This document shows positions 1 to 15,775 of a stretch of 16,039 bases of DNA, piece by piece. The notes under the pieces were generated by a model that had not been told where the DNA came from, searched no databases, and was given only the letters and a program-made list of their open reading frames with translations. A program made the translations under genes and the position numbers. Within the stretch, counting starts at the first letter, position 1; the number at the start of each line of letters is the position of its first letter. Origin of the DNA: an uncultured bacterium (GTDB taxonomy: Bacteria; CAIJMQ01); NCBI GenBank assembly GCA_964573245.1, contig CAZNJA010000032.1:1-16039 (forward strand), given 5' to 3'.

Positions 1-543
1 TACGTTTATATCGTTAGTAAAATCTACTGGTTGGAATATATAATGGGCTTCAGAAATTTCAATGTCTGGTCTCTCTATCTGAAAACTTTCAGCAGAAAGA
101 CTTACTTTTGCTCTTAAATCAGACAAGTGTCTGTATAATATTTTTTGCGTTTCTTCCTGAACAAACTCGAGCGATTGCAGTCTTTGGGTATATGTGTAGA
201 AAAGACCACTTAAAAAAATTAGTGTCGCCAGCAAAACCCCATTAAAAATAACTGCAAGTCTTGGCAGAGCAAAATTAAGTAATTGCCTGCTTTCGTCTGG
301 ATATAAATTTACACTCTCTTCCAATTCGTTTTTCAACCTGTCCCAGTAGCCCGCGAAATATTCTTTGGAAGGTTTTTCTTTTATCTTTAGTTTTATAAGG
401 TTATCTATTTTTGCCATATTCTTAAAATAATCCGCGCAATCCGAGCACTCATCAAGATGTTTTTTGACTTCATCTTTGACGGTTATATCCAAAGAATTAT
501 CCGAATAGCCCGATAACAATTTTTTTATTTTATTGCATCTCAT
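1..543 (-). CDS. Zinc-binding (ZAS/zf-HC2) transmembrane anti-sigma factor, 3' end runs off the window
   Basis: Not in the ORF track; translated by hand from ATG at 543: MRCNKIKKLLSGYSDNSLDITVKDEVKKHLDECSDC (HxxxCxxC motif), then a hydrophobic helix LAVIFNGVLLATLIFLSGLFYTY. The frame stays open to base 1. GGAGG SD upstream; lies directly downstream of the ECF sigma gene. Confidence 0.88.
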   Translation of the reverse strand, partial: MRCNKIKKLLSGYSDNSLDITVKDEVKKHLDECSDCADYFKNMAKIDNLIKLKIKEKPSKEYFAGYWDRLKNELEESVNLYPDESRQLLNFALPRLAVIFNGVLLATLIFLSGLFYTYTQRLQSLEFVQEETQKILYRHLSDLRAKVSLSAESFQIERPDIEISEAHYIFQPVDFTNDINV

Positions 544-12036: not shown

Positions 12037-14451
12037 TTATCCTCTTAATTTCAAGCCCAATTCTTCTTCTAATTTTTTAACAATCTTATCTTGCAACAGA
12101 TTTACTTCTTCGTCGGTCAAAGTTTTGTTCTTTGAGCGGAAAAACAAAGAATAAGACATGCTCTTTAAACCTTCGGGCACCTGTTTGCCTTTATAATAAT
12201 CAAAAAGTTTCACATTTTCCAAAAGTCCCTTTGCCTCTTCTCTCATTATACTTTCAATTCGTTCTGAAAAAACATCATTTGGAACTACAAAAGAAACATC
12301 CCGAACAACAGGTGGATATTTCGGAAGGAGCCTTATTTTTTTCTTCAACCGAACAAACGGCAAAAGTAGTTCCATATTGATTTCCGCGATATAGGTTTTT
12401 TCTTTTAATGAAAAGTTTCCCATTACAGTAGAATCGACTTCACCTATTACTCCTATTTCTTTATTATCCAACATGGGAGAAAAACAGTATGACGAGTTAA
12501 ATAAAGGGTTTTTATTATTTTCTGCATACATAAGCACAATACCAAGCTCTTTTAAAAGAGTCTCTAGTATGCCGTGTAATACAAAAAATGACATTTTAAT
12601 ATGAGGATAGAGCCAATTTTGTTCCAGCCAATCCCCGGTTAAAAGAATTCCCAAGCGAATATTTTCTTCGGGTAACTTATTTTTCCCATATTTATATATA
12701 CTGCGAAGTTCAAAAATTTTTAAATTCTTCTCGCCTTTGGAAATATTTTCCTGCGCTGTCTGAAGAAGCGAAGGCACTAAAGAGTTTCTTAAAATTTCAA
12801 AATCCGCCGAAATGGGATTATCGATTTTAATCGTATCATCCGTAACGCCTACCAGAGATTTTTCAAGTAAATCCGCACTTATGAAAGAATAATTTATGAC
12901 TTCGTTTAGAGAAAGGCGGTTTAATATGCTTCGGCATTTTCTTATAATTTTTGCCCTGTCGTCTTCTTTTAACGAAGGCATGCGCCCCGAAGGAAGAGAT
13001 AAAGGAATAATGTCATAATTATTTATTCGCGCTATTTCTTCTATCAAATCGATTTCTTGTTTAATGTCGTTTCTCCAGCTCGGAGCCTGAACTTTCAACA
13101 AACCTTTTTCTTTCGCCACCTCGAAACCTAAACTTTTTAATATTTTTTCATAAGAAGCAATCTTAATGCCGAGCACTCTTTTTATTTCCGCGGGATTGAA
13201 GGAGATAGTCTTTTTCTCGGTTTTTGCTTTTATATCAATTGCTCCGGAAACAACTTTTCCGCCTGATAGTTCCTGCATAAGACAACACGCTCGATTTGCC
13301 GCAAATGCGGTCCCCTCAAAATCCACGCCTCTTTCGAAACGATAGGAACTTTCGCTTGCCACATTTAAAGATTTTGAAGTCTTTCTTATAAACGTCGGCG
13401 AAAAGTTAGCGCTTTCGACAACAAGGGTTCTGGTGTTTTTATTGACCCCTGCTTCCTCGCCGCCCATTATTCCTGCAAGAGCAATAGGTTTTTTACTGTC
13501 CGCTATGACAAGAGCGCCGGAAGACAGAGTCCGTTCGATTCCGTCTAAACACAGAATTTTTTCTTTTTCTTTTGCTTGTCTGACTATTATTTTTTTATCT
13601 ACGATCTTTTCATAATCAAACGCGTGCAAAGGCTGTCCTGTTTCAAGCATAACATAGTTAGTTATATCTACTATGTTGTTTATAGGCCGTACTCCCGCAA
13701 GAATAAGCCGACGCCTCATCCAGTATGGAGAATTTTTGATTTGTGCGCCTTCGACTATCCTTGCAGTGTATCTGGGGCATGAATCGGAATCTTTTACTTC
13801 AATGTCTATTCTGTCTTTTATCTTATCCTTCGTTTCCTTAATTGTAATTTTGGGAATTTTTAAATACTTAGAAGATATTGCGGCAAGTTCTCTTGCAATC
13901 CCCATTATAGATAAACAGTCGCCTCTATTTGGCGTTATTTTTATATCGATTACGGCATCATCCGTTTCTATCTCGTCGGATAATTCTTTGCCTACCTTAC
14001 ATTTATCTGGCAAAATCCAGATCCCCGCCGGTTCTCCGACCCGTCGAGGTCGGAGACCGTCCGAATCATCTTCAAGTTCCAATTCCACCTTGGAACATAT
14101 CATCCCTTCGGATTCTATGCCTCTAATCGCGCGTTTTTCTATCTTTAATCCGTTTGGTAGCGCGCTTCCCGGCAAAATTACGGGAACTTTTATACCTTTT
14201 TTTACATTTGAAGCACCGCAAATGATTTGTTTGAAAGGGTCTTCTCCGACATCAACCGCGCAAATCGTCAGTTTGTCGGCAGAGGAGTGTTTTTTTACGG
14301 AAAGGACTTTGCCTATTTTTATTCCTTTAAGTGTAGAAGACGGTTCAATTCTCTCAACTTCAATACCCAAGCACAACAGTTTTTCGGCAAGTTCTTCCAA
14401 AGAAGAAGGAACCTCTATAAGTTCTTTAAGCCAATTGATCGGAATTTTCAT
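12037..14451 (-). CDS. pheT: Phenylalanine--tRNA ligase beta subunit, carrying a short in-frame insertion
   Basis: MKIPINWLKE, QIICGASN, RGIESEGMICS, ITPNRGDCLS, SSYRFERGVD, DLIEEIARI and the FDX-ACB C-terminus (KYPPVVRDVSF). Confidence 0.98.
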   Translation of the reverse strand: MKIPINWLKELIEVPSSLEELAEKLLCLGIEVERIEPSSTLKGIKIGKVLSVKKHSSADKLTICAVDVGEDPFKQIICGASNVKKGIKVPVILPGSALPNGLKIEKRAIRGIESEGMICSKVELELEDDSDGLRPRRVGEPAGIWILPDKCKVGKELSDEIETDDAVIDIKITPNRGDCLSIMGIARELAAISSKYLKIPKITIKETKDKIKDRIDIEVKDSDSCPRYTARIVEGAQIKNSPYWMRRRLILAGVRPINNIVDITNYVMLETGQPLHAFDYEKIVDKKIIVRQAKEKEKILCLDGIERTLSSGALVIADSKKPIALAGIMGGEEAGVNKNTRTLVVESANFSPTFIRKTSKSLNVASESSYRFERGVDFEGTAFAANRACCLMQELSGGKVVSGAIDIKAKTEKKTISFNPAEIKRVLGIKIASYEKILKSLGFEVAKEKGLLKVQAPSWRNDIKQEIDLIEEIARINNYDIIPLSLPSGRMPSLKEDDRAKIIRKCRSILNRLSLNEVINYSFISADLLEKSLVGVTDDTIKIDNPISADFEILRNSLVPSLLQTAQENISKGEKNLKIFELRSIYKYGKNKLPEENIRLGILLTGDWLEQNWLYPHIKMSFFVLHGILETLLKELGIVLMYAENNKNPLFNSSYCFSPMLDNKEIGVIGEVDSTVMGNFSLKEKTYIAEINMELLLPFVRLKKKIRLLPKYPPVVRDVSFVVPNDVFSERIESIMREEAKGLLENVKLFDYYKGKQVPEGLKSMSYSLFFRSKNKTLTDEEVNLLQDKIVKKLEEELGLKLRG
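14024..14062. repeat. Short GC-rich palindromic element inserted in frame in pheT
   Basis: cccgccggttctccgacccgtcgaggtcggagaccg: 9 bp stem TCTCCGACC/GGTCGGAGA plus 3 bp after a 1 nt bulge. Encodes the extra GLRPRRVGEPA; the first 20 nt recur at 15977-15996. Confidence 0.8.
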
Positions 14452-14501
14452 TTTTATATATTGGGATATTATAAACTTTTTACTTTTTAAATTGTAGTTT
14501 C

Positions 14502-14601: not shown

Positions 14602-15768
14602 CTACATCGCTTCTTCTTGGCAGGATTTGACCAAATCATCAATTCCTTTTTGCAGTTGGGGGGGGAGACCTAAAATAGCGGTATCCATAAAACCTCTCAC
14701 TATGGCAGCTTGTGCTTCTTCGGAGCTTAAACCTCTCGTCATAAGATATTCTATTTCTTCTTTCGCGATTTTACCGACTGCCGCCTCATGTGACATGTCT
14801 AAATCTTTCTGTGTTCCTTCAAGTTCAGGTATTGCGTGTATAACTCCCTGTGAAGAAAGGATTAAACCTCTACATTCCAAATGCGCTTTCACAAAAGGGG
14901 CCTCGCCCTTTAAATGCCCTCTTGCGATAATCGTTCCTCCATGGGTGACGGCACGCGATATTATCTCGGCTTTGGTATTGGGTTTACTCAAGATTACACG
15001 GGAACCGACATCTATATGAGAATTCGGATGTGCATATAGAAGAGAATTAAATCTAGCCACTGCTCCTTCTCCTGTCAAGGTCGCAGTTGGATACATTTGC
15101 AGAGAACGAACCGGTTTAAGACAAATATAATTGGAAAGGAACATACCCCCTTCTTCAACTATTGCTTTTGACCTGGGGCGAACTATAACATCTTCAGCCC
15201 AATTATGAATCATGGTAAATTTTAAGTTTGCGCCTTTTTTAATATAGAACTCGGAAATCCCGACATGCGCGCCTTTCTTTACGTATGAAGCAGTAGTACA
15301 ACCCGTTATTATATCCAGCTCGGAATTTTCCTCTGCAATTATTATATTATGTACATTCTGAAGCAGGTTTTCTTTTTTTAAGAAAAGGCAGGATTGTATG
15401 GGATATGAAATTTTTGCCCCCGGTAATGCTCTTATAAAATAACCATTGCGTGAATCTTTTTCTGCCAAAGTTGTATATTCGTCACCACCTCTTGAAACAG
15501 CTTTCCACCAGTAATTCTTAAGCCATTTGTATTTCTTTAAAGCCTCGCTTATATTCATAACCTCCAAGCCTTTATGCAGACTCTTGGCATGAATAACGCT
15601 GTGGTCTGCCTGTATAAATGTGCCCGAGCGTCCTTTTTCGGAAACATCTACACCGGTTTCGAGTAAATTCTTTTTATCAGCAGCAGAAATTTTAGAAAGG
15701 TCTTTTTGATAAGAATGTTCCTGCGTATCACGGGCAAACTTTTCAATTTTTATCTCTTTACCTGGCAT
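14602..15768 (-). CDS. SufB/SufD-family Fe-S assembly scaffold (SmsB-like)
   Basis: GYFIRA, QNVHNIIIAEE, IITGC, HVGISEFY, HLECRGL and SHEAAVGKIA...YLMTRG motifs. Start placed at ATG 15768 (MPGKE), just after the sufC stop with a GAGGG SD, instead of 15837. Confidence 0.92.
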   Translation of the reverse strand: MPGKEIKIEKFARDTQEHSYQKDLSKISAADKKNLLETGVDVSEKGRSGTFIQADHSVIHAKSLHKGLEVMNISEALKKYKWLKNYWWKAVSRGGDEYTTLAEKDSRNGYFIRALPGAKISYPIQSCLFLKKENLLQNVHNIIIAEENSELDIITGCTTASYVKKGAHVGISEFYIKKGANLKFTMIHNWAEDVIVRPRSKAIVEEGGMFLSNYICLKPVRSLQMYPTATLTGEGAVARFNSLLYAHPNSHIDVGSRVILSKPNTKAEIISRAVTHGGTIIARGHLKGEAPFVKAHLECRGLILSSQGVIHAIPELEGTQKDLDMSHEAAVGKIAKEEIEYLMTRGLSSEEAQAAIVRGFMDTAILGLPPQLQKGIDDLVKSCQEEAM

Positions 15769-15775
15769 ATTTCTA

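What the first reader, a model, noticed from the sequence alone, without database searches (positions are those of the whole stretch)
14024..14062. Miniature palindromic element inserted in frame into the essential gene pheT
Seen: PheT reads EDDSD-GLRPRRVGEPA-GIWIL. The extra ~33 bp are 73% GC (24/33 over 14024-14056) in an AT-rich gene and fold into a hairpin (TCTCCGACC-cgtcga-GGTCGGAGA). Known: in PheT the tRNA-binding OB domain usually runs from the GMICS..EL motif through a short acidic loop straight into GI, and coding-sequence palindromic insertions have a precedent in the longer Rickettsia palindromic elements. Inference: this is a non-autonomous REP/MITE-like unit that lands in genes and is tolerated because its length is a multiple of 3 and it sits in a surface loop. 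The exact ends are ambiguous: removing 33 bp restores either DDSDGI or DDSAGI, with a possible GG or CGG duplication.
Basis: partly seen in the sequence, partly recalled or inferred. Interest (0 to 1): 0.85.

Follow-up and report, generated by a model that had tools for sequence, protein, structure and literature searches.

The report
In-frame mobile hairpin repeat in pheT
A 33-base GC-rich hairpin repeat that also sits inside other housekeeping genes of this uncultured bacterium and its close relatives has been inserted, without breaking the reading frame, into a floppy loop of the essential enzyme subunit PheT; this kind of selfish DNA inside working genes is already known from Rickettsia and a few other bacteria.

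Summary
pheT (12037-14451, minus strand) carries 33 extra bases (14024-14056, 24/33 G+C) that fold into a 9-bp hairpin and read as GLRPRRVGEPA.

It is a lineage-specific insertion. None of 42 other PheT sequences has residues there. One metagenome contig from a roughly 91%-identical strain skips exactly these 33 bases.

It belongs to a small repeat family with ends GGTCTCCGACC...GGTCG(T/G)AGAACCGG(A/C)GG. Other copies lie in frame in nadC and sufC of this genome, in pdxA and comM of two sister genomes, and at the ntpI/ntpK junction. Each of the four whole in-gene copies is missing from the orthologues found in the sister genomes.

The genome also holds larger families of GC-rich palindromes that nest in one another's loops. 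In 281 orthologue pairs, 27 of 60 in-frame length differences of 8-30 residues are such hairpins.

In the AlphaFold model the insert is an unstructured, low-confidence loop.

No cognate transposase was found, so how the element moves is unknown.

I class it as a new family of a known kind (intragenic REPs, Rickettsia palindromic elements). This scan had already noted in-frame hairpin repeats in miaB of this genome and in other Omnitrophota genomes.

The parts
14024..14056 (-). The 33-nt in-frame insertion, family A minimal unit. Its boundary can slide by 2 nt. It is read as GLRPRRVGEPA (PheT residues 132-142).
   Evidence: Alignment gaps in 42 of 42 other PheT sequences. Codon comparison with sister genomes. 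A metagenome contig skips 14024-14056, with the joint ambiguous by 2 (table 5). 30 of 33 bases match the identical pdxA (G001) and comM (G002) copies.
14029..14059 (.). Hairpin. The perfect 9-bp stem is 14033-14041 / 14048-14056 with a 6-nt loop; a bulged outer stem extends it.
   Evidence: I22.: -13.7 kcal/mol on the sense strand (z -3.45) and -12.1 kcal/mol on the plus strand (z -2.81).
12037..14451 (-). pheT, phenylalanyl-tRNA synthetase beta subunit, 804 aa: the host gene.
   Evidence: The Pfam tRNA_bind match covers residues 44-130 and profile positions 1-81 of 96, so it stops at the insert.
15977..16039 (-). Second family A copy in the window. Another GC-rich palindrome is nested inside it and the contig end cuts it. 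It lies in frame in the sufC-like ORF and reads ...[13 protein letters not shown].
   Evidence: Relatives read ...[14 protein letters not shown] with no insert.
15776..16039 (-). 3' part of a sufC-like ATPase gene (5' end open), upstream of sufB/D (14602-15837).
   Evidence: SUFBD_core on the neighbouring ORF; alignment to 253-261-aa orthologues in G001-G004.

Best explanation
The 33 bases are one copy of a small, recently active family of GC-rich palindromic repeats. I call it family A; its canonical unit is GTCTCCGACCTCTACGGGTCGTAGAACCGGAGG. The copy was pasted into a Gly codon of pheT in the lineage leading to this genome.

Shown: it is an insertion. It has near-identical copies inside other genes. 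Those copies are present or absent among sister genomes. The unit length is 3n. The insert lies in a loop that varies in length in other phyla.

Inferred: the insert is transcribed and translated as an 11-residue flexible loop (GLRPRRVGEPA) at the end of the tRNA_bind OB domain. It is tolerated because it keeps the frame, has no stop codon and sits on a disordered surface loop.

How it moves is not shown. My preferred mechanism is copy-and-paste of the hairpin into short purine-rich GG(R)A sites by a host or trans-acting activity other than a cognate RAYT. Template switching or repair at hairpins is one candidate. I prefer this because the nearly closed sister genome with a fresh insertion has no Y1 transposase gene, and because these hairpins also appear swapped into each other's loops.
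For: Empty site:
- Only G000 of 12 PheT sequences has the 11 residues, and 0 of 42 others do in the wider alignment.
- G003 reads GAT TCC GAC GGA ATC TGG where G000 reads GAT TCG GAC [33 nt] GGG ATC TGG.
- An X2 contig at about 91% identity skips 14024-14056.

Family:
- The exact end pattern hits G000 three times and G001 once among 9 genomes. Allowing one mismatch adds G002.
- A fourth G000 copy lies at the window end.

Presence or absence in orthologues:
- The nadC insert (54 nt) is only in G000 of 5 genomes.
- The pdxA insert (33 nt) is only in G001 of 5, although G002 pdxA is 95% identical.
- The comM insert (33 nt) is in G002 and absent from G001 (96% identical) and G000.
- The sufC insert is only in G000 of 5.
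- The ntpI/ntpK junction copy is shared by G000, G001 and G002, so that one is older.

Targets: relatives' empty sites read GAC GGA ATC, GGC GGA AAA, TTG GGA AAA, TTG GGA AAG and GAA AAA.

Structure: the model has mean pLDDT 86, but residues 131-140 average 45 and there is no secondary structure over 121-146. Some other phyla carry a 6-residue insert in the same loop.

Genome-wide:
- In 281 orthologue pairs (G000 against 400 kb of G001), 27 of 60 internal length differences of 8-30 aa fold better than the 5th percentile of control coding segments.
- 24 of 60 exceed the control 95th percentile for G+C. Modal sizes are 11 and 9 aa.
- 15 of 17 ORFs spanning family B or C hairpins carry Pfam domains: Mur ligase, RadA, UvrC, Mfd, Der, RibD, TrpE and others.
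Against: - No RNA or protein data show that the 11 residues are made.
- No enzyme is linked to the element. G000 has no match to TnpB, IS110, DDE_Tnp_1 or rve, and only an HUH-less Y1_Tnp-like ORF. The assembly, however, is 110 contigs and 93% complete.
- Family A is low-copy: 4 copies in G000, and 2 each in G001 and G002 once the diverged ntpI/ntpK junction copies are counted.
- The pheT copy differs from the canonical unit at 3 of 33 bases and folds differently, so it is not a fresh identical copy.
- At the pheT, pdxA and comM junctions the filled site reads G where the sister genomes' empty sites read A. The empty allele in X2 reads GGG. A simple cut-and-paste with a target duplication does not fully account for this.
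Confidence: 0.8

Rival explanations
1. The element is a REP/REPIN-type repeat moved in trans by a Y1 (HUH) tyrosine transposase of the RAYT/TIRYT kind. It would be handled as a single-stranded hairpin during replication.
For: It is a short GC-rich imperfect palindrome, like a REP. The canonical unit contains GTAG and CTAC in its inner stem. G002 has four Y1_Tnp ORFs of 224-326 aa with intact HUH and Tyr motifs, and G003 has an IS200-type TnpA. Intragenic REPs are on record in PMC3733652 (abstract and passages read).
Against: The G002 genes are flanked by their own inverted repeats (GGGGACAGACACC... and the like), not by family A, B or C hairpins. G001, in about 10 contigs, shows no Y1_Tnp match, yet it carries a pdxA insertion missing from a 95%-identical orthologue. 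The only Y1_Tnp-like ORF in G000 reads SDKVYLL where HUH is expected. GTAG is not at the end of the palindrome, and the pheT copy has lost it.
Confidence: 0.2
2. The hairpin is kept in pheT because it does something there, for example as an RNA structure that pauses translation, or as a translational bypass element like the GC-cluster 'byps' of Magnusiomyces mitochondria. In that case the 11 residues are never made.
For: GC-rich hairpins inside AT-rich coding sequence are bypassed in yeast mitochondria (PMC8811140, passages read). In pdxA the codon before the insert and its last codon are both GGG.
Against: Every intragenic insert measured is a multiple of 3 and open in frame: 33, 33, 33, 54, 24, 27 and 39 nt. 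Bypass would not require that. In pheT the flanking codons are GGT and GGG, which are not a matched pair. An older shared nadC insert has changed at 6 of 36 bases between G000 and G002 with no indel. The same unit sits in unrelated genes and in both orientations.
Confidence: 0.04
3. It is not mobile DNA. It is a local loop expansion made by slippage or duplication, or an assembly error.
For: The loop varies in length in other phyla.
Against: 30 of 33 bases match units inside pdxA and comM of other genomes. The same ends occur in nadC, sufC and ntpI of this genome. Contigs from four runs carry the insert unchanged. There is no local direct repeat beyond 2 bases.
Confidence: 0.02

Closest known systems
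Intragenic REPs: GTAG- and CGTC-tagged palindromic repeats (Di Nocera et al. 2013, PMC3733652; abstract and passages read)
   Same: Both are 20-40-nt GC-rich imperfect palindromes. Both are mostly intergenic, but some copies are inserted in frame in known genes, many of them DNA-repair genes. Here UvrC, Mfd, RadA, RecJ and Ogg carry related hairpins. The CGTC class also has no dedicated transposase.
   Different: Family A has only a handful of copies. No GTAG or CGTC tag sits at the end of the palindrome. No REPtron was found. The host is an AT-rich (38% G+C), 1.46-Mb uncultured bacterium.
Rickettsia palindromic elements, RPE-1 to RPE-10 (as summarised in PMC10969869; passages read)
   Same: Palindromic selfish DNA inserted in frame into unrelated housekeeping genes. 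Read in more than one frame. Said there to be compatible with protein conformation and function. No known transposase (that last point is recalled).
   Different: RPEs are described there as about 150 bp, against 33 bp (11 residues) here. No sequence comparison with RPEs was made.
Mobile GC clusters of yeast mitochondrial DNA (PMC8811140; passages read)
   Same: Short GC-rich palindromes in an AT-rich genome. In-frame insertions in a coding gene (var1). Clusters merge and shuffle, as in the loop-in-loop nesting seen here. The mechanism is unresolved.
   Different: Those are organellar. Their terminal AG/TAG repeats are read as target duplications. Some are bypassed in translation. There is no sign of common descent.

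Membership tests
REP / REPIN (RAYT-mobilised) | Short (20-40 nt) imperfect GC-rich palindrome | tested here: met
   29-33-nt unit with a 9-bp stem.
REP / REPIN (RAYT-mobilised) | GTAG or CGTC tetranucleotide at one end of the palindrome | tested here: not met
   In the canonical unit GTAG lies inside the right arm (GGTCGTAGAACC). The pheT copy reads GGAG there and has CGTC only in its loop.
REP / REPIN (RAYT-mobilised) | A cognate RAYT gene flanked by the same repeats | tested here: not met
   G000 has one Y1_Tnp-like ORF lacking HUH. G001 has none. The four G002 genes are flanked by unrelated inverted repeats. The assemblies are incomplete.
REP / REPIN (RAYT-mobilised) | High copy number (more than 100 copies per genome, as the listing abstract of PMC2817692 puts it) | tested here: not met
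   Family A has 4 copies in G000. The related family C has 51 two-armed units.
Rickettsia palindromic elements | Palindromic repeat inserted in frame in unrelated ORFs | tested here: met
   pheT, nadC, sufC, pdxA and comM.
Rickettsia palindromic elements | Unit of about 150 bp encoding a conserved peptide; sequence related to RPE-1..10 | tested here: not met
   The unit is 33 nt. It is read in three different frames: GLRPRRVGEPA, SPTSTGRRTGG and, in antisense, SGSTTRR.... Sequence relatedness to RPEs was not tested.
MITE | Terminal inverted repeats | tested here: met
   The ends GGTCTCCGACC and GGTCG(T/G)AGAACC are imperfect inverted repeats.
MITE | Target-site duplication | tested here: inconclusive
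   Only a 2-nt GG ambiguity at the joint. Filled sites read G where sister empty sites read A.
MITE | A parent insertion sequence with matching ends | tested here: not met
   No match in G000 to PF07282, PF01548, PF01609 or PF00665. G000 is 93% complete in 110 contigs.
Translational bypass elements (byps) | Lengths not constrained to multiples of 3; matched take-off and landing codons | tested here: not met
   All measured intragenic inserts are 3n. pheT has GGT before the insert and GGG at its end.

The most novel reading that the evidence does not exclude
These hairpins may form a transposase-free, structure-targeted mobile system. GC-rich palindromes would be copied into, or swapped for, other hairpins: each other's loops, and the anticodon arm of tRNA-like copies. 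They would also be copied into GG(R)A sites in genes, perhaps by template switching at hairpins. Unit lengths held at multiples of 3 would make them a main source of new protein loops in this lineage; about 45% of 8-30-residue length differences between two congeneric genomes are such hairpins.
Probability: 0.15. Interest if true: 0.8.

Novelty: new member of a known kind. Interest (0 to 1): 0.5.

Why it matters
The finding shows that an essential aminoacyl-tRNA synthetase subunit can take up selfish hairpin DNA as extra protein loop. It also shows that in this small-genome uncultured lineage such hairpins account for a large share of protein length changes between sister species. That makes the group a natural place to study how non-coding repeats become coding sequence, and how palindromic repeats spread when no transposase is evident. 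I found no paper describing this for Omnitrophota. The search 'Omnitrophota' + 'palindromic' gave 10 papers, 9 listed, none on repeats. A six-term search with Omnitrophica/Omnitrophota and REP/MITE/RAYT terms listed 12 of 55 papers, and none of those 12 held both kinds of term.

Tried and rejected
- Rfam scan of the whole window at E <= 1: nothing at either family A copy. It found only tRNA-Asn and two weak sRNA matches elsewhere.
- RNA evidence: no RNA holder was listed among 13 runs, so expression could not be examined.
- Metagenome scan for the canonical 30-mer: one contig, which encodes the same pdxA as G001, so no new site.
- Look-up of the element sequence in earlier scan notes: nothing.
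- C42:350-360 holds a lone GGTCTCCGACC with no partner arm. I treated it as chance.
- The 274-aa plus-strand ORF 13673..14497 that overlaps pheT is the antisense frame of a conserved gene. I did not count it as a gene.
- Translational bypass and local slippage were considered and rejected (see the rival explanations).
- Flanks of the Y1_Tnp genes in G000, G002 and G003 were read for family A-C hairpins. None was seen.
- The script stopped with an error after printing the sufC part. The comM part was redone.
Full report
**Observation.** The minus-strand ORF 12037..14451 encodes an 804-residue PheT with the full bacterial domain set: tRNA_bind, B3_4, B5, the synthetase core and FDX-ACB. Between ...ELEDDSD and GIWILP... 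it reads GLRPRRVGEPA at residues 132-142. The coding DNA is GGT CTC CGA CCT CGA CGG GTC GGA GAA CCG GCG. Window 14024-14056 is 24/33 G+C, counted, in a gene whose 300-nt windows run 0.32-0.44 G+C. The arms 14033-14041 and 14048-14056 are perfectly complementary around a 6-nt loop. The arm pattern is expected 0.01 times per window by chance. The sense strand folds at -13.7 kcal/mol, z = -3.45. Contigs from four public metagenome runs carry the insert unchanged, so it is not an assembly artefact (records 3, 6, 11, 13).

**It is an insertion.** I aligned PheT from G000 with 11 relatives found by whole-genome search: three of the same genus at 74-77% identity, one of the same family, and seven further away. 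Only G000 has the 11 residues. In a 43-sequence alignment of the N-terminal 200 residues, 0 of 42 other sequences have a residue in those columns. At DNA level G003 reads GAT TCC GAC GGA ATC TGG. One contig of run X2, 151 nt long with 13 differences over 141 aligned bases, skips exactly 14024-14056. The joint can slide by 2 bases, and the empty allele reads GAC GGG ATC (tables 5 and 8).

**It belongs to a repeat family.** A short-word BLAST and pattern scans of the 110-contig, 1.46-Mb, 38% G+C assembly found the same ends, CCGGTTCTACGACCCG ... GGTCGGAGACC on the plus strand, at three further places:
- C17:22249-22300, in frame inside nadC in the opposite orientation. It is 54 nt and reads SGSTTRRLASLRSGGRRP.
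- C16:11061-11118, at the 3' end of the V-ATPase subunit I ORF, running into the ribosome-binding site of ntpK.
- Window 15977-16039, in frame in a sufC-like ORF and cut by the contig end.

The end pattern was then searched in all 9 genomes that the tool files in this organism's phylum. It hit only the genus. G001 has a 33-nt copy inside pdxA and G002 has one inside comM. Both read SPTSTGRRTGG and are identical over 33 nt. The pheT copy matches that canonical unit at 30 of 33 bases. The nearest named relative (G001) is titled Candidatus Omnitrophota bacterium.

**Presence and absence among orthologues.**

| Insert | Present in | Absent from |
|---|---|---|
| nadC, 54 nt | G000 | G001-G004 |
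| pdxA, 33 nt | G001 | G000, G003, G004 and G002 (95% identical protein) |
| comM, 33 nt | G002 | G001 (96% identical) and G000 |
| sufC | G000 | G001-G004 |
| ntpI/ntpK junction | G000, G001, G002 | G003 has only a short remnant |

The junction copy is therefore older. G001 lacks the 27-nt inner palindrome that G000 and G002 carry there. The family thus has old, vertically inherited copies and young, lineage-specific ones, as expected of mobile DNA.

In the relatives' empty sites the target is a Gly or Glu codon followed by A: GAC GGA ATC, GGC GGA AAA, TTG GGA AAA, TTG GGA AAG and GAA AAA. In pheT, pdxA and comM the filled site reads G where the sister empty sites read A. In sufC the Gly codon likewise reads GGG against GGA in G001 and G002. 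I cannot say whether that reflects a target requirement or the insertion process.

**Wider setting.** The genome is rich in other GC-rich palindromes.
- Enriched 10-mers include CCTGCCCGCC (39 occurrences), CCCGCCTGCC (28) and GCTCCGACGT (21).
- Family C (CCCGCCTGC-loop-GCGGGCAGG) has 51 two-armed units. Of these, 40 have lengths that are multiples of 3, with a mode of 27 nt. That includes 15 of 22 units lying in no long ORF. The copies descend from common masters, so these counts are not independent events.
- Families nest in each other's loops. Family B (CTCCGACGTNACGTCGGAG) sits inside family C at C2:22726 and C23:12174, and inside family A at C16.
- The sister genomes' pheT genes carry their own in-frame palindromes at other sites: 24 nt in G001, 66 nt in G002, and 33/57 nt at a shared site.
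- Of 17 ORFs spanning family B or C units, 15 have Pfam domains. They include Mur ligase, RecJ, an RpoB-RpoC frame, PyrK, PurE, RadA, a radical SAM enzyme, UvrC, a transketolase/DXS-like enzyme, two TrpE-like proteins, Der, RibD, Mfd and Ogg.
- I made a systematic comparison of 281 orthologue pairs, G000 against the first 400 kb of G001 contig C11. It found 60 internal in-frame length differences of 8-30 residues. Of these, 27 fold better per base than the 5th percentile of 1200 control coding segments, 24 exceed the control 95th percentile of G+C, and 20 do both. About 3 would be expected by chance for each single criterion. The commonest sizes among the hairpin-forming ones are 11 residues (7 cases) and 9 residues (5 cases).

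**Where it sits in the protein.** The Pfam tRNA_bind match ends at residue 130, covering profile positions 1-81 of 96. An AlphaFold2 model of residues 1-212, built on the 43-sequence alignment, has mean pLDDT 86. Residues 131-140 average 45, and there is no secondary structure from 121 to 146. Several other phyla carry a 6-residue insert a few columns upstream in the same loop. The loop therefore tolerates length change.

**How it moves.** This was not resolved.
- G000 has one Y1_Tnp match: a 436-residue ORF that reads SDKVYLL where the HUH motif is expected. It is conserved in G003, where it itself carries a PAR...AGG hairpin insert.
- G000 has no match to the TnpB zinc ribbon, IS110, DDE_Tnp_1 or rve families. 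The assembly is 93% complete and fragmented.
- G002 has four Y1 ORFs with intact HUH and Tyr motifs. Two of these are flanked by their own inverted repeats beginning GGGGAC and a third by its own hairpins, and none of the four flanks holds a family A-C hairpin. The GGGGAC repeats resemble the GGGGWSAS TIRs of the TIRYT genes described in PMC3733652.
- G001 shows no Y1 match, yet has a young pdxA insertion.

For these reasons I prefer a mechanism without a cognate RAYT, but this is inference.

**Comparison with what is known.**
- Intragenic REPs have been reported in several species, notably Opitutus terrae and Rickettsia conorii, many in repair genes. The CGTC class has no dedicated transposase (PMC3733652; abstract and passages read).
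- Rickettsia palindromic elements of about 150 bp are inserted in frame in many genes (PMC10969869; passages read).
- Yeast mitochondrial GC clusters are GC-rich palindromes in AT-rich DNA. They insert in frame in var1, and they merge and shuffle. In Magnusiomyces they are bypassed in translation (PMC8811140; passages read).

The present element works like these, but it fails the REP tag, RAYT and copy-number tests and the RPE size test. I therefore file it as a new family of the known kind 'palindromic repeats tolerated inside genes'. Earlier notes of this scan describe an in-frame double hairpin in miaB of this same genome and several in-frame hairpin families in other Omnitrophota genomes. 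I did not test those elements themselves.

**Verdict.** The insertion is real and belongs to a recently active repeat family. Its translation is inferred, and how it moves is unknown.

Noticed in passing
G000 C14:12787-13108 and C58:8091-8159; G002 C86:460-560 (L152): Partial or whole tRNA-like copies (tRNA-Val(gac)-like and tRNA-Ala(ggc)-like) in which the 17-nt anticodon arm is exactly replaced by the 19-nt family B palindrome CTCCGACGT(A/G)ACGTCGGAG. The G002 copy also has a palindrome in its D-loop and lies just upstream of thrS. ARAGORN calls none of them.
   Followed up: partly
G000 C8:25479-33479 (L137): A single open frame of 2667 codons holds both the RpoB domains (44-1297) and the RpoC domains (1321-2603), so rpoB and rpoC may be fused. 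It also carries a 27-nt family C hairpin in the RpoC part.
   Followed up: no
G000 C12:23859-25169 (L099:1429-2739): A 436-residue ORF with an N-terminal Y1_Tnp-like domain that lacks the HUH histidines, a predicted membrane segment, and a C-terminal part resembling the 202-residue ORF just upstream. It is conserved in G003.
   Followed up: partly
G000 C17, nadC codons 24-35 (L100); G002 nadC: A second, older 33-nt GC-rich palindromic insert (GPEPEGSRSGA) shared by G000 and G002 and absent from G001, G003 and G004. The two copies differ at 6 of 36 bases, and at every difference the G002 base is A or T.
   Followed up: partly
G000 genome-wide; G002 pheT codons 453-474: A further repeat family with inverted ends CCCGTTAGA(A/G)AT. 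The 11-mer ACCCCGTTAGA occurs 70 times in G000. One 66-nt copy is in frame in G002 pheT, and 25-residue copies lie in two G000 genes.
   Followed up: partly
window 16039 (contig end): The contig ends inside the second family A copy and its nested palindrome. These repeats probably break the assembly.
   Followed up: no
pdxA of G002 and G003 (L106, L109): Family C hairpins of different length (27 and 39 nt, PARQSLSGG and PARTPLKQWREGG) lie at the same codon of pdxA in two genomes. They are absent from G000, G001 and G004.
   Followed up: partly
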